Origin: a virus
Lineage: Duplodnaviria; Caudoviricetes
Virus record (IMG/VR): IMGVR_UViG_3300021387_000688
Strand: one strand, 5' to 3'
Length of the DNA stretch: 64,000 nt
Positions 3,501 to 41,586 of the stretch are shown here, piece after piece (position 1 is the first letter of the stretch; each line of letters starts with the position of its first letter). The notes under the pieces are model-generated. The model was not told where the DNA came from. It was given only the letters and a program-made list of their open reading frames with translations, and did no database searches. Position numbers and translations under genes: made by a program.

Positions 3501-4008
3501 AGCTACCTTCACTTCTATGGGTTATGCAGATAGATCTACAAACCGTGGCACATTACATCAATTGCATAGAAACAGTTTTGATTTCAATTCTACTTTGATA
3601 GGTACAGATAAGTTTAATGGACCTATTAGCTTAGCAGATTTGAACAATACAATTGCAGATCCTGAACCAAATACTCTTTACAACTTTGCAGTTACCGTTT
3701 ACAAAGGAGAAGATTTAGCAAACTCTTTAAACAACTTAGTTGAACCAAAGGTAGATGGCGACTTGTTAGTATCTGCAATGGATAGAAAAGTTGTATTTGA
3801 AGATGGTGAGTTTGCAGAAAGATATAAAGAAGATGTTTATGATCATAATATCATAGATTTAAGAGGACCTGTAGTTAATACAAGGGCTCTTAAAGAAAGG
3901 TATAGTCCTAATGAGACTTTACTAAGTGAAGTATACTTGGCCGCAGACGGTACATGGAGAAGTATCCACGAACACCCAGTTGCACCTATTTTGGATTGCG
4001 AATTTTAA
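559..4008 (+). CDS. Large putative virion structural protein (1149 aa)
   Basis: Long acidic ORF with a GAGGA SD and an ACTAA late motif, directly before the tail tube gene; no recognisable enzyme motif. Confidence 0.5.
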   Translation: MQKKQNDSYTGDAITNNIKYADNEWQAHGTVDRGSMFLTEPLLGLLYAGKKYDKDLGDYKDYVPRGSMSSTAGLDANATALARAKFQIEPARLSHDLLLLDATYYVSTANSSLVNIFDVDTYIKKAISIANPIYDDHVNYKVIHLIDPDNVDENLTVKDFLKQVHPKAALGKDINDEDLGVVFERYSVKRTDNSQFTLNPNTKIKEFLSHKDEDTLEGIAAKVFYEDFTLHEHDPLSIRNPFDVRSEERRQYYLSRFLANTVSHSLGVSENGLGYYEILNNMIEDATFHSYGTAEDTWPKRVFGDEALQWNLENAYSWTSNLVGEDDEHLPIEDTTETQDNKYIEVFRRFLGDKSSRANYKEYLRRMNTAISSISKYCIDVYVDWDTSDPGSIKDSWGIHLLNEESTTNLFQDNSHNYRLFNTAALGYKLADALISLRTFLGGFYHMFSASGGDSEQATYVIPYDTPIYERSVNTTPIGALCEGNVDWNGSGENPFYRQNTYVTIDTLNNLYRLGHGIKGDIVASDDYPSSYAFEAEIKEWLSNETLMIKAPVYGDYVEELNFMQDLNPDSDVNFANLRIKKTSIPYKNSQDSKYEEPFVMRTNPLVNREKENKKGYGVHASEALAAVGDNPDGLNWGENEPKTSHVIPPFLYDYDKRNEEDFLEADERLLSKEGAKQRVANPAGNSVIESRIESPTIDELWTFLKYLTESDGNVNDSNRLPSFYGIDKKFIKNSLITKEDFANTVNPMAAEDNNRKIIDILNWHIIPDTSKPPYYSSEAENEIRLGGYEVTEYIDKIYDYEINPFSRRVVKKDGDKYEYDTEAQFDQDVNGKYSNSHDEPTGYLEKLYNETIANFALYNALEGDESLSNAAEIVSIFEDENYDNYFNAEADKLIKTPTSEKKLAYAQAQWSNQRVKAFTLLSRILNYHKADGENDLVDGKDTSYHNHYKHYMNHPKNLKSIERDLEAIRQNLQSLAEFALATFTSMGYADRSTNRGTLHQLHRNSFDFNSTLIGTDKFNGPISLADLNNTIADPEPNTLYNFAVTVYKGEDLANSLNNLVEPKVDGDLLVSAMDRKVVFEDGEFAERYKEDVYDHNIIDLRGPVVNTRALKERYSPNETLLSEVYLAADGTWRSIHEHPVAPILDCEF

Positions 4009-4068
4009 TTTTGCAATACACTAAATAAATACAAGTATACTTAAAAAACTTCAATTGGAGGAAATTAA

Positions 4069-4752
4069 ATGGCACAAAAAACAGCTAATGGTACTTTTAC
4101 CGGAGTTACAGCAGGAGCTATACTACCCGGACACACACCAGCTAGTACATTGATGATGGCTACAGGCGATGCAATGGATAACATATTCGATGTTATGGTG
4201 GGTTGGCCAAGTGGATTAGACACTAGTGCTCCTATTGCAGAAGCATCTTATAGATGTGAAGGATTCAATGTACCTCAGGCAAAAACAAACACTCACAATG
4301 TAACATGGCATGGAGTTACAGTAAAGAAAGTAAGCTCTGGTATCAAGTTAGACAGAGAGCAGAAATTGAAATTCAGATATGATGCAAACTATGCACTATA
4401 TATGAGATTTAAAGCATGGAAGAGAATTACTGGAGATGTTAACACTAGTGGTGTAGCAAACACAGAATCCGCTTTAGGATGGTTTGCAGTAGTAGCACCT
4501 GGACAGGAATATAACTCTCAAAGTTTCTATAACATGATCACAAGTAACACAGATGATTCTGGTGATAATATCATGATTAATGATATGCAAAATATCAGGT
4601 TACTTTATTGGATTTTGAACAGTGCACAGGTAATAGATGTAGGAACCCCTCAATTCAAAAATCAAGGGGATGGTAAGGAAATGTGGTACGAGGTATCATT
4701 CATTTACGGTGATATGGCAGATCCATTTGAATCAGCTACTAAGGCAAGCTAA
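4069..4752 (+). CDS. gp19: Tail tube protein (T4 gp19-like)
   Basis: FDVMV..RCEGFNVP....VTWHG..VK.....KFRYDANY.LY..FKAW resembles gp19; late motif ACTAAATA, GGAGG SD, own terminator. Confidence 0.7.
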   Translation: MAQKTANGTFTGVTAGAILPGHTPASTLMMATGDAMDNIFDVMVGWPSGLDTSAPIAEASYRCEGFNVPQAKTNTHNVTWHGVTVKKVSSGIKLDREQKLKFRYDANYALYMRFKAWKRITGDVNTSGVANTESALGWFAVVAPGQEYNSQSFYNMITSNTDDSGDNIMINDMQNIRLLYWILNSAQVIDVGTPQFKNQGDGKEMWYEVSFIYGDMADPFESATKAS

Positions 4753-5173: not shown

Positions 5174-5327
5174 AATTTGTACCTCGTGTTATATTAAGTT
5201 ATAATTTATGATTATAATATAGCTAAACTTTGGGACAATTTTTCGAAAATGTTTGAAAAAGTTACCAAATCTATATTAAAAATGGAACCCACTACTAATT
5301 TGAAAATAAAAGGAGTTATTACATATA

Positions 5328-6398
5328 ATGAAAGAAGAGAAACAAGTTGACACTGAATTGATCAATGTAGAAGAAATTGCAAGAGACGCTGACGTACCTG
5401 CAGGTTACGTAAAAGTAGCAATGTCTACTAAAGGATTTGGTTATGCTCCTAAAACCTTTCATATAAGAGACTTATCAGTAGAAGAAACATTACAATTGGG
5501 AATGACTGCTCCAGAAGAGATTCCTGTAAAGTTCCCGGCAATGATGGATAAGCTTATTTACGAAAAAGATGTGCATGTAGGAGACTTCATGGATGGTGAA
5601 GTTTCTGAATTTATGATTTGGTTTTATGTAAACTTCTATCAGCATAAATTGAAGGACATTGATTATAAGTTGGATGAAAAAACTAAACAATGGGCTTTGA
5701 AAAATATGTTCGGTGGAGTAGATGGACAACCATATCAAAACTGGTTGAGAGGTATTGAAAGGGGAGATATTCCACTTCATTTTGATATCGACCTTTATAA
5801 GATTAGATTTTATTCTATTACTGAAAAGATTAAAACAACTGTAGAGTACGAACATAAAGGTTTCAAAGCAGTGTTTGCTTATCCAAGGTTTGGAGATGCT
5901 GCAATACTTCAAAAAGCCGTAAAAGATAAGTTTAGAGAACAGGATGCCCAGATCGGTCCTTTATACGATATCTATAAAAGAAAGATGGATATGGAAAAAG
6001 CCATAAGAAGGGGCGAAAGAATTGACCAATCTCAGATTCCTTATTTGGATGAAGAAGATCTAAACGCTGCCCGTCAATATGAAATTGAAAAAACAGTATA
6101 TACCATTTCTTTGATGAAAGGTATGTATCTTAGAAGTATTGATGGTAGAGATGTAAGTAATTTATCGCTCGCAGAAAGAGTAGAGATTGCAAAAGATAAT
6201 CGTATCGATTATCCATGCTATCAAACCATTCAGGAAGCCTTTAAGGATATGAAAGTAGGTCCAGTACCTCTTGTAGAGATTACAAATCCTGTAACAGGGG
6301 AGGTTGAAAAAGATTACGAGTATCCCTTTCGGGCCCTTGAGTTGCTTGCCTTTATTAAGAACTACAGACCTGACGACGCAACTGTTAAGTATGTCTAG
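5328..6398 (+). CDS. Baseplate hub/tail assembly chaperone (T4 gp26-like)
   Basis: FHIRDLSVEE N-terminal motif and C-terminal P.VEITNPVTG..YPF pattern of gp26-like chaperones; AGGAG SD; late motif at 5294. Confidence 0.6.
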   Translation: MKEEKQVDTELINVEEIARDADVPAGYVKVAMSTKGFGYAPKTFHIRDLSVEETLQLGMTAPEEIPVKFPAMMDKLIYEKDVHVGDFMDGEVSEFMIWFYVNFYQHKLKDIDYKLDEKTKQWALKNMFGGVDGQPYQNWLRGIERGDIPLHFDIDLYKIRFYSITEKIKTTVEYEHKGFKAVFAYPRFGDAAILQKAVKDKFREQDAQIGPLYDIYKRKMDMEKAIRRGERIDQSQIPYLDEEDLNAARQYEIEKTVYTISLMKGMYLRSIDGRDVSNLSLAERVEIAKDNRIDYPCYQTIQEAFKDMKVGPVPLVEITNPVTGEVEKDYEYPFRALELLAFIKNYRPDDATVKYV

Positions 6399-8091: not shown

Positions 8092-8111
8092 TTAAAAGTT
8101 TTTTAAGTATT

Positions 8112-8141
8112 AAACCCCTAGAATTTCTAGGGGTTTTCTTT
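8112..8141 (+). terminator. Intrinsic terminator
   Basis: AAACCCCTAGAA-T-TTCTAGGGGTTT plus T-run. Confidence 0.85.
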
Positions 8142-8156
8142 TGCCTACGATTTCAG

Positions 8157-22479: not shown

Positions 22480-24189
22480 ATGATGGTTTCAAAGATCAAC
22501 AAGCGTCCAGTAGCAAAACCAACAATTGCTAAAAAGGAAGCTGTTAAGAAAATGACAGAGAAAGCAGCACGTGCAGAAAAAGCTGCTTTAGTATGGAACA
22601 ACCACCCATTGTTTAAAGGTGAGTTGTCATCTATCAAGGAAGCAAAAGTTCGTCAGAATGCTGCTATCAACTTGACAAACCAGGCTCGTTATATGAAACA
22701 GTTGAACGAGCAGGAAACATCTACAGAGTTCCAGAGAATGGCACCTGCTAACATGATGAGATTGGTTCAGTTAACAATGACCAACTTGAATCGTGGAAAC
22801 GTATTCGCAGAGTACTCAATGGAAACTGCTCGTGATGCTATCTACTACATCAAGACATTCTTCTCTAAGAGCTCAGGTCCAAACGCTGGATTGATGGCTG
22901 AAAGATCTATGTCATATGATGGATCAGAAGGACAGGATCCATTCGGATTTGGTCCAAACGCTGATGAAGAATATCAGGTAGGTGGATACAATGGACGTAA
23001 TCCAATCTACGGTGGAAAGAAACGTGCTAACAACAACTACACAAACACAAACGCTCGTAAGGCTGTTTATGAAACTGTAGAATCTCGTTATGCTAACGAG
23101 TTGGCAAATGGTAAAGTAGAAGGTCTTACAATTTCTTGGGTTGGTGGTCCATTCGGAACTAACGGTGAATTGTATGTTCCAGGACAGTCTACAATTTATG
23201 CAGGAACAAATGAACAGGATGTAATCGCTATTCAGGATCCTTCAACTCTTGAGTATTTCGTAGCTCAGAAGTATAAGGGAGCAACTGTAGTAGAATCTCC
23301 AAGATCTGCTGAAGGTGGTCCAGTTACTGTAACTGTTGACTTCTCTGGTCTTGTAGAAGGTGAAGCACCTGCTACTATTAACGGATATGCTCGTTTCGAT
23401 TCAGAAACAGACTATGAAGGAAATCACCTCGGTGAAGTAAACTTGATGATGAGCGTTGCTGAGCTTCGTCCTCACAGAACATCTATTGGTGTATCTTGGA
23501 CAAAGTTGGCTGAGATTACTCTTGATGCTTCTTTCAACACTCAGATCGACGAAATCCTTTTGACATCTGCAGCTGATACAATTCACGCTCAGATGGATTA
23601 TCAGGCATTCAAGGAAGCTTATGCTTTCGCTTGTACAAACCCTAAGACATACACAGTTCACTTCGATGCTGCTTACTCAACAGACACAACTGGTGACAAG
23701 GGTACAAAAGATAGCTATACACAGACTGCTCAGACATTGTCTTCTGCAATCGAATTAGCTGGTGCTGCTCTTTACAGCGACATCAAACGTGGTGCTATCA
23801 ACAAGATGGTAGTTGGTGTATCTGTAGCTCCATATTTGAAACTTAACTTAGGTTTCGAACCAAAGGGACTTCAGGATCCAACAGGTGTTTACAAGATCGG
23901 TGAATTGGACGGAATCGAAGTATTCAAGGCTCCAGTAGAAGTTATCCCAGATAACGAGATCTTGTGTGTATACAAGAACGCTAAGGTAGAAAACGACGTT
24001 GCAATCGTATATGGTACATTAGTTCCATTCGTAAGCAACAAGTTGGAATATCCTACATTCTATACACGTGCTGGTCTTGCTTCATTCGGTGATCGTGCCG
24101 TATTGAACAGAAAGTATCTTGCACGTATCGTAATCGATAACTTGAAGGATCGTTTCAAGGGAACAGCTACAAACCCAACAGGTGAGTAA
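22480..24189 (+). CDS. gp23: Major capsid protein (T4 gp23-like, HK97 fold)
   Basis: LTNQARY, RLVQL...N....EYSM..A...IYY, L.P.R....VSW, IGELDGI.V, YGTLVP; highly biased codons; AGGAG SD; strong terminator. Confidence 0.88.
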   Translation: MMVSKINKRPVAKPTIAKKEAVKKMTEKAARAEKAALVWNNHPLFKGELSSIKEAKVRQNAAINLTNQARYMKQLNEQETSTEFQRMAPANMMRLVQLTMTNLNRGNVFAEYSMETARDAIYYIKTFFSKSSGPNAGLMAERSMSYDGSEGQDPFGFGPNADEEYQVGGYNGRNPIYGGKKRANNNYTNTNARKAVYETVESRYANELANGKVEGLTISWVGGPFGTNGELYVPGQSTIYAGTNEQDVIAIQDPSTLEYFVAQKYKGATVVESPRSAEGGPVTVTVDFSGLVEGEAPATINGYARFDSETDYEGNHLGEVNLMMSVAELRPHRTSIGVSWTKLAEITLDASFNTQIDEILLTSAADTIHAQMDYQAFKEAYAFACTNPKTYTVHFDAAYSTDTTGDKGTKDSYTQTAQTLSSAIELAGAALYSDIKRGAINKMVVGVSVAPYLKLNLGFEPKGLQDPTGVYKIGELDGIEVFKAPVEVIPDNEILCVYKNAKVENDVAIVYGTLVPFVSNKLEYPTFYTRAGLASFGDRAVLNRKYLARIVIDNLKDRFKGTATNPTGE

Positions 24190-24238: not shown

Positions 24239-24271
24239 AAAACCTCTACTGAAAAGTAGAGGTTTTATTTT
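24239..24271. terminator. Bidirectional terminator after the capsid gene
   Basis: AAAACCTCTACT-GAAA-AGTAGAGGTTTT. Confidence 0.9.
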
Positions 24272-24274
24272 TGG

Positions 24275-24781
24275 TTATAACAAATCTTCCCAATCATTAA
24301 CGCAATATGCATAACTTAAACCAGCTATGGCGCTTTCAACGGGTGTTTCAAAATCTTTAACTCTAAACTTAATACCCATTCTCTTTTCGAGATCTAGTAT
24401 CATTTCTCCTTTATAGCCTATTATTAGTCCTGGGCGTTGACATAATACTCTAGGACCTTTTTTAGTAAACTCTACATCAGATATTCCAAACTGCCGGATA
24501 TCGTTAATAGTTTTATCAACTACGTTACGGTCATAATATTTTCTGTATTCAGGAGAAGCCCAAGACATGTAAGTTTCTCCTGTAGTAGAAGTTTCATATT
24601 TACAGCCTGTCTCTTCTGCAAGTTTTAATAGATTTTCTTTTTCACTTTCTTGCATCTTATGCAAGTAAGCATTACAAAAATCTCTCATAAAGGCTTCTAC
24701 TTTTCCTGCATGAGAATGTTTCTTCTTAAAAGAATGATACCTATACTTAAGGCATTTTATATGGGCAATTATTCTATTCAT
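24275..24781 (-). CDS. Protein with a ribosomal S3-like type II KH RNA-binding domain
   Basis: GISDVEF....RVLCQRPGLIIGYKGEMILDLEKRMG matches S3 GISxIEI...TARPGIVIGKKG. Start moved to 24781 because TATATT lies 6 nt upstream. Confidence 0.7.
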   Translation of the reverse strand: MNRIIAHIKCLKYRYHSFKKKHSHAGKVEAFMRDFCNAYLHKMQESEKENLLKLAEETGCKYETSTTGETYMSWASPEYRKYYDRNVVDKTINDIRQFGISDVEFTKKGPRVLCQRPGLIIGYKGEMILDLEKRMGIKFRVKDFETPVESAIAGLSYAYCVNDWEDLL

Positions 24782-24831
24782 GATTATAATATAGATAAAT
24801 CCGGTTTGGATAATTTCATAAAAGATCGGTT

Positions 24832-24860
24832 TCGACAAAAATAAAGAAGCTAATTATAAT
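24832..24860 (+). promoter_or_regulatory. Sigma70-type promoter pointing into a gene-free interval
   Basis: TCGACA(24832-37)-17 nt-TATAAT(24855-60). Confidence 0.65.
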
Positions 24861-24866
24861 GTATTT

Positions 24867-25023
24867 TAACCGGTAAAGCCTGCCTCGAATAGCTGGCAGT
24901 TTACATATAATGAAAAAACTTAGGTTGCAAGTTTTTCTCTTTATTGAGTTAAAGTTTTTAAAGCAACCCTCTTTGTCAAAAGAAAAGCCCTATCTTTTTG
25001 ATAGGGCTTATCTTTTTGTTTTT
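24867..25023 (+). ncRNA. Candidate structured small RNA (hairpin plus H-type pseudoknot)
   Basis: Lies between the promoter and a terminator; hairpin 24873-24904; pseudoknot S1 24914-21/24929-36 and S2 24923-28/24963-68. Confidence 0.45.
24983..25023. terminator. Bidirectional terminator
   Basis: AAGCCCTATC-TTTTT-GATAGGGCTT with A-tract on the left and T-tracts on the right. Confidence 0.8.
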
Positions 25024-25048
25024 TAAATACCTTGTTTTGAAATTATTT

Positions 25049-26537: not shown

Positions 26538-26852
26538 TTACTTATTCTGTTCTCCGTATATTTGACCGTATGTAGGATAATCAGTAATAGGTTTCGGCCC
26601 TTTATATTCTTTTGAATTAGTTAGTTCATTGTCATCCTTTTTATACAAGAGGAGCTGAGTTAACAAAATTTGGGACCCTAATGGAATACTTATATCTTTG
26701 CAATTAGAATTCCAATCTCCATTAATCATTGGATGAGTTTCAATATGTTTTACTTCCCAACCTTCCTCTAATAACTTATCTACTTCTCCGCCGTTACAAA
26801 ATATATCACCGGCTTGATTTGCTTTAATTGTAAATCTAACTAACTTAAACAT
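26538..26852 (-). CDS. Hypothetical protein
   Basis: 104 aa; GAGG SD; VDKLLEEGWEVK motif. Confidence 0.65.
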   Translation of the reverse strand: MFKLVRFTIKANQAGDIFCNGGEVDKLLEEGWEVKHIETHPMINGDWNSNCKDISIPLGSQILLTQLLLYKKDDNELTNSKEYKGPKPITDYPTYGQIYGEQNK

Positions 26853-28650
26853 TTTTTTCCTCTTTAAGTAAATCTTCTATTTCAGCCACTGCTTTATCTA
26901 CATCAGGCCCATAACCTTCAACTTCTGAATTATCCGCAATATCCTTTTGGAGCGCTTCAATCTTCTTTTGAACATTATCGGCTTGTTTAAGTACTTCTTC
27001 ATCTTCTACTTCTACTGCAGGTTCTTCTTTTATCTCAGGTATTTCGGAATCTTCTTCTGCAGTTAAAGGCCTAGGTTTCTTAGTTTTCTTAGGCTTCTCA
27101 TCTACAGATTCCGATTCCTTTTCTGGTTCTCCAGAATACATTTTTACATAAGCTTCAGTACGTCTTTCAATTTCGTGTTCAATCCATTTAGACTGTCTCT
27201 TAGCAATTACATCAATTACTTTATCCATTTTGAAATCATACTTAGCTTGACTATAAGAACCGTCATCCAAATAGTTGTTATAAATCTTAATTAAGAAGTG
27301 ATTAATATCTAACCCTTTACTCTCCATTGATTTAAGATCTAAGTATTCAGAGAATTGAGAAAGTGCGCGCCTATCAATAGTTGACTTTGGAGTATAAAGT
27401 GCAATAATAAGTTCCTGTACAATACCAAATACCATGATTAAAATCATCATCATAACTTCAGTTGTACCAAACGAATTCGTAGACACTTTCTGTTCTGTAA
27501 TGTTTTCCAAAGTAGCTTTATTAGTAAACTTACTTTCAAGTGCAGGACCAATAATCATAAACATCTTGGCAGATTGTCCAACATCTCCACTATCGTTTTC
27601 GTAAGCGGATTGTATATCCCCTAGCGTCTGTAAAGACTTTGAAATGTTATCAGGATCGAATACAACTGGGCTACCATCTGGCCAAGTAAATCTTCCTTCT
27701 AGGTTTTCAATTTCTTGTTTAGCTTTATTATTTGTTTTATCTGCCAATTCGGTTAAACTATCCAAAGAAGTATTTGCAACAGAAGCTTCGATTTCTTTTT
27801 TAATAGTTGTAGCTAATTGGGCTTCGGAAGTAATGTTACGAATTTGATAAAGGCTTAAGTTTCTATAAACATTTACATCTTTTTGAACTTTTGCATTTCT
27901 TTCAGTCCAGTAATCGTCTGGAATAATTTCTTTACCTTTCCATTCAATTGGTTCTCTGGAATCACGTGCAACTGGGAACTCAGCCATTTCTGCACGATAC
28001 TCTTCAATGATTGGCCAAATCTTTGCGGCTTGAGTTGCAGCAGTATCAGCTGCATTGCTTGATGCATTTGTTCCTTTTACCAATGCCTTAAACTGTTCTT
28101 CATCTGAAACGTCTGCGGTACTACTATACTTTGCAATCTTTTCATAAGCTTGTTTAGCTTTCAAGATTTCATTTTGATTCTTACGTACAGCATCTCCAAT
28201 AGAAACAACTGACAAAGATATTGCAGTAATAAGAGATACTGTAATTAAGAATTTGTGCGCAAAGTTCCATCTTAGTTTAGGCTTATTTAATGCCAAAAAT
28301 GGTAAATCATTTTCCTTTAAACGAGCTTGTAATTCTTTAATTACACTTAACTGGGTTGCACACCAGAACTTAGCTGATGTAAAACCAATAGACATTAAAG
28401 TATAAACAATTCCTGCGGCAACTGAGATTGTAGCAATCTTAAAAATAGATTTTGATAATTCTGAGAAGAATACCAAATCGATGATCCCGGATACGAAAGA
28501 CAAAATAAGTAATGTCACTATCTTTCCTGATATCAGGATTTCAGTTGAATCGATAGTTGGTTTTTCAAAAAACTTTTCGCCTTTCTTACTTCCCCATTTC
28601 CAATGAATGGTTGGTAACTTAATTGTTCTTTTCTTTTTCGTATTTTTCAT
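26845..28650 (-). CDS. Multi-pass membrane protein with a large helical extracytoplasmic region
   Basis: Three N-terminal and one C-terminal hydrophobic helices, basic N-terminus, acidic tail. Confidence 0.65.
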   Translation of the reverse strand: MKNTKKKRTIKLPTIHWKWGSKKGEKFFEKPTIDSTEILISGKIVTLLILSFVSGIIDLVFFSELSKSIFKIATISVAAGIVYTLMSIGFTSAKFWCATQLSVIKELQARLKENDLPFLALNKPKLRWNFAHKFLITVSLITAISLSVVSIGDAVRKNQNEILKAKQAYEKIAKYSSTADVSDEEQFKALVKGTNASSNAADTAATQAAKIWPIIEEYRAEMAEFPVARDSREPIEWKGKEIIPDDYWTERNAKVQKDVNVYRNLSLYQIRNITSEAQLATTIKKEIEASVANTSLDSLTELADKTNNKAKQEIENLEGRFTWPDGSPVVFDPDNISKSLQTLGDIQSAYENDSGDVGQSAKMFMIIGPALESKFTNKATLENITEQKVSTNSFGTTEVMMMILIMVFGIVQELIIALYTPKSTIDRRALSQFSEYLDLKSMESKGLDINHFLIKIYNNYLDDGSYSQAKYDFKMDKVIDVIAKRQSKWIEHEIERRTEAYVKMYSGEPEKESESVDEKPKKTKKPRPLTAEEDSEIPEIKEEPAVEVEDEEVLKQADNVQKKIEALQKDIADNSEVEGYGPDVDKAVAEIEDLLKEEKNV

Positions 28651-30993: not shown

Positions 30994-31683
30994 TTACCCC
31001 CTATATTCAATTCCGGTTGCACCGAACTGGCGATTAAGAGAAATGTTATTTCCCTCTACCATTCCGCTTGTATAAGCAATTGAATCTCTTATAGCTGCTC
31101 CGTTCATTTTATAATCACCAAGTTTGCCATAAGAATTATTAATCCAATTTTCTACTTCATCAAGTGGTACTAAACCCCACTTGTCAGTTTTTGGAGCAGT
31201 TGATTTAATTTCATTGATTTTAGTTCTAACAGAATCTACTACACCAGTACAGTAAGCATTTCTAGAAGAAGGGCAATCTCCAACTCTTCTAGCTTCTTTA
31301 ATAGTTTTGTCACGAATCCAATTATACATCAACTTTGCAGTCAATCTGTTGCCTTCGCGACCAATTACTACAAGATGACATTTCTTATCCCAATAAGTTC
31401 CCAAACCAGATCTTAATACTTTACAATCGAACAACTTACTGATGGATACAAAAAGATTGATTTCCCATTTACGATACTGTTTTTTATCTTCGTCCAATGT
31501 TTCTTGATCCAAGCAACCCAAGATTTCGTCTCTTGAATATTTCTGGACATCTTCCATAGATATTCCGTGCTCGCGCATCAAATCATAAGCTCTTTTTAAA
31601 GCTGTTTCTGCTTCGCCAGCATAATCAGTACCGTTTCCAAGATTTATAAGTTTTTCAATTTTCGAAAGTAATTTGTCATCCAT
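30994..31683 (-). CDS. DUF2786-domain protein
   Basis: KLLSKIEKLINL......EAETALKRAYDLMREHGIS N-terminus; W...LF..I..LF.C; S.NAY..G. Confidence 0.85.
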   Translation of the reverse strand: MDDKLLSKIEKLINLGNGTDYAGEAETALKRAYDLMREHGISMEDVQKYSRDEILGCLDQETLDEDKKQYRKWEINLFVSISKLFDCKVLRSGLGTYWDKKCHLVVIGREGNRLTAKLMYNWIRDKTIKEARRVGDCPSSRNAYCTGVVDSVRTKINEIKSTAPKTDKWGLVPLDEVENWINNSYGKLGDYKMNGAAIRDSIAYTSGMVEGNNISLNRQFGATGIEYRG

Positions 31684-31733
31684 GTTAATAATATAGCTTA
31701 AACCCGGAAACTGAATTTCTAAAAAGGCAAAAG

Positions 31734-31757
31734 AAAAGGACTCTTTTTAGAGTCCTT
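31734..31757 (-). terminator. Intrinsic terminator
   Basis: AAGGACTCT-TTTT-AGAGTCCTT with an A-tract on the left. Confidence 0.8.
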
Positions 31758-31761
31758 GAAT

Positions 31762-41505: not shown

Positions 41506-41559
41506 ATTGTTACCTCAATAACAATATAGTAAATCCCGGAAAATCATTTTTCGAAAAAG

Positions 41560-41586
41560 AAAACCTCCTATTGCTAGGAGGTTTTT
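41560..41586 (-). terminator. Terminator after the sheath gene
   Basis: AAAACCTCCTA-TTGC-TAGGAGGTTTT. Confidence 0.9.

What the first reader, a model, noticed from the sequence alone, without database searches (positions are those of the whole stretch)
24275..25023. Candidate RNP system: S3-like KH protein gene back-to-back with a pseudoknotted small RNA
Seen: a minus-strand KH-domain gene (start 24781, promoter 24788-24817) diverges from a near-consensus plus-strand sigma70 promoter (TCGACA-17-TATAAT, 24832-24860). That promoter fires into about 150 nt with no credible gene and ends at a terminator (24985-25023). The RNA can fold into a bulged hairpin (GUAAA/UUUAC plus CUGCC/GGCAG, 24873-24904), then an H-type pseudoknot: S1 AAAAACUU/AAGUUUUU, 1-nt L1 (A24922), 6-bp S2 GGUUGC/GCAACC (24923-28/24963-68), zero L2. 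A 1-nt L1 over a 6-bp S2 is classic pseudoknot geometry. Inference: the RNA and the neighbouring RNA-binding protein may act together as a translation-control, decoy or anti-defence RNP. I recognise no RNA family here.
Basis: partly seen in the sequence, partly recalled or inferred. Interest (0 to 1): 0.75.

Follow-up and report, generated by a model that had tools for sequence, protein, structure and literature searches.

The report
Conserved phage small RNA, KH-independent
A giant sheep-rumen phage keeps a roughly 155-base non-coding RNA gene with its own promoter and terminator, but sister phages keep the same RNA without the neighbouring KH-domain gene, so the two are probably not an obligate RNA-protein pair.

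Summary
The minus-strand gene 24275-24781 does encode a KH type II (uS3-like) domain protein. It is not ribosomal protein S3.

The spacer 24861-25018 is best read as a stand-alone small non-coding RNA gene.
- It is 7-8% diverged between phage sub-lineages, against 19-38% at third codon positions of the flanking genes.
- The 38-codon ORF loses its ATG by two different changes.
- Variable positions avoid the three core helices.
- The closing pair of the 6-bp helix S2 shows one compensatory G-C to A-U change.

The RNP reading is not supported.
- Two sister lineages keep the RNA unit but have no KH gene at this locus. KH plus its promoter is a ~565-bp indel that ends at the RNA promoter's -35.
- Distant KH homologues in other giant phages have no such RNA nearby.

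The conserved promoter core is the phage's own CTAATTA box, not the sigma70 hexamers.

The H-type pseudoknot is possible: 1 of 1000 shuffles matches it. Stem S1 has no discriminating evidence, and a nested fold is about as stable.

No transcript data were available and no target was found. Rfam has no match. The scan had already noted the KH protein and other small RNAs in this genome, but not this RNA on other DNA.

The parts
24861..25018 (+). Proposed small non-coding RNA, about 155 nt. Both ends are inferred, not mapped.
   Evidence: The 5' end is inferred from the promoter box. In this phage's leaderless genes the ATG lies 11-12 nt after the C of CTAAWT, and a sigma70 reading would start at about 24863-24868. 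The 3' end is inferred from the terminator T-run. The region is 7-8% diverged, against 19-38% at third codon positions of neighbouring genes.
24850..24856 (+). CTAATTA box: the invariant core of the RNA promoter and a phage-wide intergenic motif.
   Evidence: It is invariant in the 8 of 9 aligned sequences that reach it; L016 ends before it. Of 8 copies in the window, 7 are intergenic, while intergenic DNA is 6.4% of the window (p = 3.5e-8). It ranks first among 140 seven-mers of the same composition.
24832..24860 (+).
   Evidence: Found. It is not conserved: L001 has TATATT, and L026 and L021 have TTGCCC or ATGCCC with TATATC. The same scan finds no sigma70-type site in L026.
24873..24904 (+). 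5' bulged hairpin: 5 + 5 pairs and a 10-nt loop.
   Evidence: Predicted energy is -9.9 kcal/mol. Stems and loop are invariant in all lineages. The only change is in the bulge, C24879 to U.
24914..24936 (+). Candidate pseudoknot stem S1: 24914-21 pairs with 24929-36.
   Evidence: Eight AU-rich pairs; the hairpin alone scores -3.3 kcal/mol. The only variation is A24929 to G in L016, which gives a U-G pair. That change also fits the nested fold, so it does not discriminate.
24923..24968 (+). Central domain closed by the 6-bp helix S2: 24923-28 pairs with 24963-68.
   Evidence: G24923-C24968 becomes A-U in the L021, L026 and L016 lineages. The helix appears in the MFE fold, the RNAalifold consensus and the pseudoknot model.
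24969..24984 (+). Invariant pyrimidine-rich then A-rich linker before the terminator. It is a possible seed region, and it also encodes the minus-strand terminator's U-tail.
   Evidence: Invariant in all lineages. It is unpaired or weakly paired in the folds. It shows no above-chance complementarity to the 45 start regions in the window.
24985..25023 (.). Bidirectional intrinsic terminator, shared by the RNA (+) and the NrdG/100-aa operon (-).
   Evidence: Found. The stem is invariant and the loop varies. The plus-strand tail stays T-rich although its sequence diverges. The minus-strand tail fits the phage's usual terminator tail.
24910..25026 (+). 38-codon ORF, rejected as a gene.
   Evidence: The ATG is removed by a 2-nt deletion (L026/L016 type) and by a T-to-A change (L021 type). 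The substitutions in its frame all change the residue (my reading of the translations). There is no SD, and the stop codon lies beyond the terminator T-run.
24275..24781 (-). Gene for a 168-aa protein with an N-terminal helical part and a C-terminal KH type II domain. The GXXG motif is GYKG at residues 122-125.
   Evidence: Seven of 9 family members match Pfam KH_2, best E = 9.4e-8. A family profile hits FUBP/KHSRP KH domains and uS3 in the PDB. The AF2 model has pLDDT 83, and its top Foldseek hits are the uS3 N-domain and NusA. The family alignment covers the N-terminal residues, which supports the 168-aa start.
24788..24820 (-). KH gene promoter of the phage's TTnGAA-N20-CTATATT class. The ATG lies 6 nt after the box, so the mRNA is probably leaderless.
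   Evidence: The same layout precedes the gene starts at 31683, 41505, 5173 and 30475.
24272..24835 (.). KH cassette (ORF plus promoter). It is an indel relative to sister lineages.
   Evidence: In L021-L032 about 17 nt join the 569-aa gene's terminator directly to the A-tract and CTAATTA box of the RNA unit.
24239..24266 (.). Bidirectional terminator that ends the 569-aa gene (+) and the KH gene (-).
   Evidence: Found. The homologous hairpin is present in KH-less lineages.

Best explanation
The stretch from about 24861 to about 25018 on the plus strand is a stand-alone gene for a small non-coding RNA of roughly 155 nt.

The RNA belongs to one clade of roughly 400-kb rumen T4-like phages. It is probably transcribed from the phage's own CTAATTA-box promoter, a class seen mostly in front of large, presumably virion, genes and therefore probably late. 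It ends at a bidirectional intrinsic terminator.

The RNA has four parts:
- an invariant 5' bulged hairpin;
- a central domain closed by a 6-bp helix;
- an invariant single-stranded pyrimidine/A-rich linker;
- the terminator hairpin.

It most likely acts in trans as a regulatory RNA, by base pairing or by binding some protein. It does not depend on the KH protein. The KH gene is an accessory cassette inserted, or retained, next to it in one sub-lineage only.

Shown here: conservation, loss of the ORF start, structure-compatible variation, and presence without the KH gene.

Inferred only: transcription, the RNA ends, late timing and trans action.
For: 1. Purifying selection. The RNA region differs at 10-11 of 143 positions (7-8%) from L026 and L021. 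The flanking 100-aa, NrdG and 214-aa genes differ at 10-23% overall and at 19-38% of third codon positions. The spacer just 3' of the terminator is scrambled with indels.

2. Kept across mosaic contexts. The unit is present with the KH gene (window, L001) and without it (L016, L021-L032). It sits beside three different left-hand genes: the 569-aa gene, a copy of it 39% diverged at the nucleotide level, and a DUF7487 gene in L001.

3. In KH-less lineages it lies alone between the terminators of two convergent genes.

4. Not coding. The ATG is lost twice independently, and every change in the frame alters the residue.

5. Structure. Of 20 variable columns out of 155, only 24923 and 24968 fall in the 52 core-helix columns, and they compensate (G-C to A-U). 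The chance that the other 18 all miss the helices is 5e-4 counted by column. My own hand estimate, counting them as 9 clusters, is about 0.03.

6. Plus-strand use. The CTAATTA box is invariant and 7 of its 8 window copies are intergenic. The T-run after the hairpin is kept on the plus strand although its sequence diverges.
Against: - There is no transcript evidence.
- Only three shallow lineages exist. They give one compensatory event, and the covariation term is only -0.44 kcal/mol.
- Fold stability without the terminator is ordinary, z = -1.55.
- Between the window and L001, the 172-nt identical run is matched by identical runs of 182-221 nt elsewhere in the same comparison.
- The invariant linker also encodes the minus-strand terminator's U-tail, so part of the conservation could serve that strand.
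- No target stood out among the 45 start regions in the window.
- Rfam has no match.
- No copy was found in more distant phages.
- That the CTAATTA box is a promoter, and a late one, is an inference.
Confidence: 0.6

Rival explanations
1. First reader's model. The RNA folds into an H-type pseudoknot and works together with the adjacent KH protein as an RNP, acting as a translation-control, decoy or anti-defence particle.
For: - The neighbour is a genuine KH type II protein with an intact GXXG loop.
- The two units are back to back in the window, L001 and L002 lineages.
- The pseudoknot pairing is rare in shuffles, 1 in 1000.
- In the pseudoknot model C24937 to A falls in loop L3. In the single-sequence MFE fold it breaks a pair.
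Against: - Two sister lineages keep the RNA with no KH gene at the locus.
- A search of 5.8 billion protein clusters found close KH relatives only of the window and L001 types.
- Distant KH homologues in other giant phages sit inside operons with no RNA hit by the covariance model.
- S1 shows no compensatory change, and its one variant fits the nested fold too.
- The nested alternatives score -12.3 and -10.2 kcal/mol. By my rough estimate that is about what a pseudoknot would give.
Confidence: 0.07
2. There is no functional free RNA. The conserved spacer is cis-acting DNA or transcript-end structure: a bidirectional terminator with back-up hairpins and promoter elements that insulates the convergent 569-aa gene and NrdG/100-aa operon. 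Any short transcript is a by-product.
For: - The minus-strand side of the terminator fits the phage's usual hairpin and tail.
- The invariant linker doubles as that tail.
- The fold without the terminator is not unusually stable.
- No target was found.
- There is no transcript evidence.
Against: - About 120 nt beyond the terminator are conserved far better than synonymous sites. Other terminator-promoter junctions in this phage need only about 40-60 nt. The 51%-identity relative L012 has a 109-nt spacer with neither a terminator hairpin nor the RNA unit.
- Hairpin 1 and S2 have no T-run after them on either strand, so they are not back-up terminators.
- There is a compensatory pair in S2.
- The plus-strand T-run and the CTAATTA box are both conserved.
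Confidence: 0.25
3. The product is a small protein from the ORF at 24910 (38 aa) or from its internal TTG start.
For: The frame stays open from the TTG at 24925 in all three lineages, giving 31-38 codons.
Against: - The ATG is lost twice.
- There is no SD before either start.
- Every substitution in the frame changes the residue, and one of them is the compensatory partner in a helix.
- The frame runs through the terminator hairpin, and its stop lies past the T-run.
- Pfam and PHROGs give no match.
Confidence: 0.03

Closest known systems
sRNA1 and sRNA2 of the virulent Pseudomonas phage PAK_P3 (Chevallereau et al. [quoted passage not shown]
   Same: They are small RNAs of about 100-150 nt encoded in intergenic regions of a virulent myovirus. 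The PAK_P3 pair is made late and conserved only among close relatives, and the function is unknown.
   Different: There is no sequence or Rfam relationship. Those RNAs were seen by RNA-seq, whereas this one is inferred from sequence conservation only. Here a compensatory pair and a candidate pseudoknot are available.
Classic H-type RNA pseudoknots (frameshift-stimulating and T4 gene 32 autoregulatory types; from my own knowledge)
   Same: The layout matches: S1, a 1-nt L1 crossing a 6-bp S2, zero L2 allowing coaxial stacking, and a long L3.
   Different: Those act in cis on an mRNA, for frameshifting or as a translational operator. Here no gene lies downstream or overlaps. S1 is AU-rich and unsupported by covariation, and a nested fold competes.
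Ribosomal protein uS3 N-terminal KH type II domain and NusA KH domains
   Same: The C-terminal half of the 168-aa protein (about residues 75-160) matches in profile and in predicted fold, and it has a GXXG loop.
   Different: There is no S3 C-terminal domain. It has a private N-terminal helical part. The family is small, 8 clusters at 50% identity, and the contigs fetched for it are from large uncultured phages. It is not a ribosomal protein.
Other stand-alone small RNA candidates noted by this scan in the same phage (anti-SD-tailed sRNAs; e1-5482338, e1-5482352)
   Same: Same genome and same general build: own promoter, 5' structure, an exposed pyrimidine-containing stretch next to a terminator.
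   Different: The scan's index shows no sequence similarity to them. The linker here is only a weak anti-SD (CUCUUU), and its pairing to start regions is not above chance.

Membership tests
KH type II domain (Pfam PF07650 KH_2) | Significant profile match to the KH_2 model | tested here: met
   The window protein alone scores below the cut-off (14.2 bits against 22). Seven of 9 family members match, best E = 9.4e-8. The family profile hits KH domains of FUBP/KHSRP (E = 3.8e-9) and uS3 (E = 1.6e-5) in the PDB.
KH type II domain (Pfam PF07650 KH_2) | GXXG loop between the two core helices, and the KH fold | tested here: met
   GYKG lies at residues 122-125 and is conserved in 8 of 9 members. The AF2 model has pLDDT 83. 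Its top Foldseek PDB hits are uS3 N-domains (probability 0.99) and NusA, although TM-scores are low (0.24-0.30) because only about half the protein aligns.
Ribosomal protein uS3 | KH N-domain plus the S3 C-terminal domain (PF00189), length about 205-250 aa | tested here: not met
   The protein is 168 aa and has no S3_C match. Alignment to uS3 covers only query residues 75-163 against uS3 residues 23-115.
H-type RNA pseudoknot | Two crossing helices with loop lengths that can span them | tested here: met
   S1 has 8 bp, L1 1 nt, S2 6 bp, L2 0 nt and L3 26 nt.
H-type RNA pseudoknot | Evolutionary or experimental support for both helices forming together | tested here: inconclusive
   S2 has one compensatory pair. 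S1 has only one U-A to U-G change, seen in a single contig, and that change fits the nested fold too. No probing data exist.
Any Rfam 15 family | Covariance-model score at or above the gathering threshold | tested here: not met
   No match in the whole window. The sub-threshold hits are all terminator look-alikes.
Stand-alone bacterial/phage sRNA gene | Own promoter, no ORF, intrinsic terminator | tested here: met
   The unit has a promoter-like box, a terminator and no conserved ORF. The promoter is inferred from its motif, not from a mapped start.
Stand-alone bacterial/phage sRNA gene | A detected transcript of defined size | not testable with these tools
Base-pairing (seed-type) regulatory sRNA | Conserved accessible seed with above-chance complementarity to target start regions | tested here: inconclusive
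   RNAduplex of four exposed segments against 45 start regions of the window gave best energies within the shuffled range; 9.5-87% of shuffles did as well. Host and remaining phage genes could not be searched.
RNA anti-CRISPR / solitary CRISPR-repeat mimic | Hairpin identical to a repeat that occurs in arrays in host genomes | tested here: not met
   The 20-mer of the hairpin-1 top was sought in 241 million metagenome records. It matched only this phage (L019) and three single, non-repeated hits in GC-rich DNA with no other similarity to this locus, about the number expected by chance.

The most novel reading that the evidence does not exclude
The RNA adopts the H-type pseudoknot and acts late in infection as a protein decoy or scaffold. 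In the sub-lineage that acquired the adjacent KH type II gene, that protein is its dedicated partner, which would make the pair a newly assembled phage RNP caught at the moment of gene gain.
Probability: 0.07. Interest if true: 0.7.

Novelty: new member of a known kind. Interest (0 to 1): 0.35.

Why it matters
Small RNAs of virulent phages are barely charted. PMC4933390 names T4 band C and D as the only earlier examples from a virulent phage, and the function of those and of its own sRNA1 and sRNA2 is unknown.

This is a clean, testable candidate in an uncultured roughly 400-kb rumen phage. It is a self-contained unit under clear purifying selection, with defined helices and a natural presence/absence contrast of the neighbouring KH gene.

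The practical lesson is negative. Adjacency of an RNA-binding-domain gene to a structured RNA is not evidence of partnership here, because the gene is a movable cassette.

Tried and rejected
- Rfam at gathering and permissive thresholds gave nothing beyond terminator look-alikes. No tRNA or tmRNA was found.
- INPHARED phages by blastn gave no match. IMG/VR gave none by KH protein or by two exact RNA patterns. This clade appears to be absent from both collections.
- The metagenome scan with the hairpin-1 20-mer returned only an identical copy (L019) and three chance hits in unrelated GC-rich DNA. This also rejects a CRISPR-repeat-mimic reading.
- No whole genome is held for the window, and L003's record is not held. 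KH-less genomes therefore could not be searched for a KH gene elsewhere.
- Covariance model R1 found only terminator-type hits in distant KH loci, in the 51%-identity relative L012/L013 and in phages with 57%-identity NrdG.
- The target scan against the window's start regions was not above shuffled controls.
- The window-versus-L001 conservation argument was rejected. The identical run is not an outlier in that shallow comparison. Only the deeper L021 and L026 comparison is informative.
- The single-sequence AF2 model of the KH protein was unusable at pLDDT 42. It was replaced by the model built from the alignment.
- The 100-aa proteins upstream of distant KH genes are not homologous to the window's 100-aa protein.

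Full report
**Setting**

The window is part of a roughly 398-kb metagenome contig of an uncultured phage. Earlier notes of this scan call it a T4-like giant phage from sheep rumen or gut. I did not test that label. GC content is about 34%. No whole genome is held for it.

**Checking the observation**

- The minus-strand ORF starts at ATG 24781.
- TCGACA-17-TATAAT lies at 24832-24860.
- The terminator hairpin lies at 24985-25009 with a T-run.
- Hairpin 1 and the two pseudoknot stems, with a 1-nt L1 and zero L2, are present.

The statistics are mixed.
- An 11/12 sigma70 match is not unusual in this AT-rich window: 5 were seen and 3.7 +/- 2.1 are expected.
- The fold is unusually stable only when the terminator is included, z = -4.46 against -1.55 without it.
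- A pseudoknot this good arose in 1 of 1000 dinucleotide shuffles. That is suggestive, given the site was picked after scanning 64 kb.

**The KH protein**

- The window protein alone is sub-threshold for Pfam KH_1 and KH_2.
- An all-against-library HMMER search found seven distant homologues at 28-38% identity.
- In the nine-member alignment, seven members match KH_2, best E = 9.4e-8.
- The family profile hits the KH domains of FUBP/KHSRP and uS3 in the PDB.
- The alignment-based AF2 model has pLDDT 83. Its best Foldseek matches are the uS3 N-domain and NusA.
- In BFVD the nearest models are phage proteins auto-named "ribosomal protein S3", at weak E-values.
- The GXXG loop is GYKG at residues 122-125.
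- There is no S3 C-terminal domain, so this is a KH-II protein and not uS3.
- The family alignment covers the first 31 residues, which supports the 168-aa start at 24781 over the 137-aa gene call.
- Its promoter belongs to a phage-wide class, TTnGAA-N20-CTATATT with the ATG 6 nt after the box. The same layout precedes four other genes in the window.

**Relatives of the locus**

Close relatives fall into three shallow lineages.
1. The window type and L001. L001 is 95% identical in DNA, its KH protein is 88% identical, and its RNA is identical.
2. The L021 type.
3. The L026/L016 type.

I found lineages 2 and 3 through variants of the neighbouring 100-aa protein.

The window-versus-L001 comparison says little. 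The identical run of 172 nt over the RNA is matched by identical runs of 182-221 nt elsewhere. The deeper comparisons are informative.

**Finding 1: the RNA unit exists without the KH gene**

In L021-L032 the 100-aa gene is followed by its terminator and then by the RNA region. About 25 nt further on comes the terminator of the convergent 569-aa gene. No KH gene is present at this locus.

The KH ORF plus its promoter (window about 24272-24835) is an indel. About 17 nt stand in its place in the sister lineages.

A more distant relative, L012 (100-aa protein 51% identical), has neither the RNA nor KH at this place. It has only a 109-nt spacer with a promoter.

Distant KH homologues in other large phages sit inside co-directional operons. 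The covariance model built from the RNA finds nothing but terminators there. It also finds nothing in phages whose NrdG is about 57% identical.

**Finding 2: the RNA region is under purifying selection and is not coding**

- It differs from L026 and L021 at 7.0% and 7.7% of 143 positions. The flanking genes differ at 10-23% overall and at 19-38% of third codon positions.
- The spacer 3' of the terminator is scrambled.
- The ATG of the 38-codon ORF is destroyed twice: by a 2-nt deletion and, separately, by a T-to-A change.
- The frame stays open from an internal TTG, but every substitution in it alters the residue. There is no SD, and the stop codon lies beyond the terminator's T-run.

**Finding 3: the variation fits the helices**

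- Of 155 alignment columns, 20 vary.
- Only two of these lie in the 52 columns of hairpin 1, S2 and the terminator stem. They are the two sides of the closing pair of S2, G24923-C24968 changing to A-U.
- The chance that the other 18 all miss the helices is 5e-4 counted by column. My hand estimate, treating adjacent changes as 9 events, is about 0.03.
- The terminator loop varies while its stem does not.

This is one compensatory event in three lineages. It is real but thin support, and it concerns a helix common to the nested and pseudoknot models.

**Pseudoknot or nested fold**

Stem S1 has one variant, A24929 to G in a single contig. It keeps a U-G pair, but it equally keeps a G-U pair in the MFE nested fold.

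C24937 to A breaks a 3-bp helix of the single-sequence MFE fold. It is unpaired in both the RNAalifold consensus and the pseudoknot model.

The energies are close. The nested central domain scores -12.3 or -10.2 kcal/mol. S1 alone scores -3.3 and S2 alone -6.6. I cannot decide between the folds. I put the pseudoknot at roughly 0.3.

**The promoter**

- The last two bases of his -10 vary: TATAAT, TATATT and TATATC.
- The scan finds no sigma70-type site in L026.
- What is invariant is an upstream A-tract and GCTAATTATA.

CTAATTA occurs 8 times in the window. Seven copies are intergenic, while intergenic DNA is 6.4% of the window (p = 3.5e-8). It ranks first of 140 seven-mers of the same composition.

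The related CTAATT motif sits 11-12 nt before the SD-less ATGs of several large genes. Earlier notes of this scan had proposed CTAAWTA as a late, T4-like promoter box. I tested the intergenic enrichment and the spacing, not the timing.

The conserved promoter of the RNA is therefore most likely this phage-specific box. That would place the 5' end near 24861.

The T-run after the hairpin on the plus strand is kept although its sequence diverges. This argues that a plus-strand transcript reaches the hairpin.

**What it does**

Function is unknown.
- Rfam has no family for it.
- The hairpin is not a CRISPR-repeat mimic.
- The exposed segments show no above-chance pairing to the 45 start regions in the window.
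- The architecture is a 5' hairpin, a structured centre, an invariant single-stranded stretch and a terminator. That is the build of a trans-acting regulatory RNA, and I commit to that reading as the most likely. The mechanism, pairing or protein binding, is inferred.
- The main rival is a cis-acting terminator and insulator region with no functional free RNA.

**Verdict**

The spacer most likely holds a conserved small non-coding RNA gene, confidence 0.6. The KH protein is a real KH-II protein. The proposed RNA-KH partnership is not supported. The pseudoknot remains open.

The closest published analogues are the late intergenic sRNA1 and sRNA2 of phage PAK_P3, and T4 band C and D RNAs, all of unknown function (PMC4933390).

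Noticed in passing
window, both strands; copies at 171, 180, 22290, 24850 (+) and 52321, 44363, 33820 (-): CTAATTA is almost exclusively intergenic: 7 of 8 copies, p = 3.5e-8. The related CTAATT lies 11-12 nt before the SD-less ATGs of large genes (starts 8169, 11259, 34441, 22247). It is probably a phage-specific, possibly late, promoter box that gives leaderless mRNAs.
   Followed up: partly
window upstream of gene starts 24781, 31683, 41505, 5173, 30475 (all minus strand): There is a second recurrent upstream layout, TTnGAA-N20-CTATATT. In several cases the ATG lies 6 nt after the box and no SD is present.
   Followed up: partly
window 8110-8150, 31725-31760, 41540-41575, 24985-25009 (minus-strand sense): Intrinsic terminators of this phage share a stereotyped tail after the hairpin, T4-C-T4-G followed by C or A then C, often immediately followed by the next promoter.
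   Followed up: no
L001:5556-7361 compared with window 22480-24189; L021:3594-5303: The gene left of the KH/RNA locus is mosaic. It is a 569-aa protein in the window, a copy 39% diverged at the nucleotide level in L021, and an unrelated 601-aa DUF7487 protein in L001. The RNA unit sits at a recombination boundary yet stays conserved.
   Followed up: partly
window 24901-24915 and 5319-5333: A 15-nt identity in the same sense (TTACATATAATGAAA) links the RNA's first linker to the start region of the gene at 5328. The blastn-short E-value is 0.01 before allowing for AT bias. It may be chance.
   Followed up: no
window 24802-24813 and 24827-24838: An imperfect 12-nt direct repeat (CGGTTTGGATAA and CGGTTTCGACAA) lies at the right edge of the KH cassette, next to the indel boundary.
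   Followed up: no
L007 and L008 (contigs of 39.5 kb and 341 kb), genes around 4001-4558: The distant KH-family member P0004 lies in another phage contig among NAD-salvage genes (NAPRTase, NAD synthase, NUDIX/CTP-transferase-like) and thymidylate synthase, inside a co-directional operon.
   Followed up: no
window 27818-28117: A 300-nt stretch inside the 601-aa gene (26845-28650) holds 103 of the 281 differences between the window and L001. It is a local hypervariable or recombined segment.
   Followed up: no
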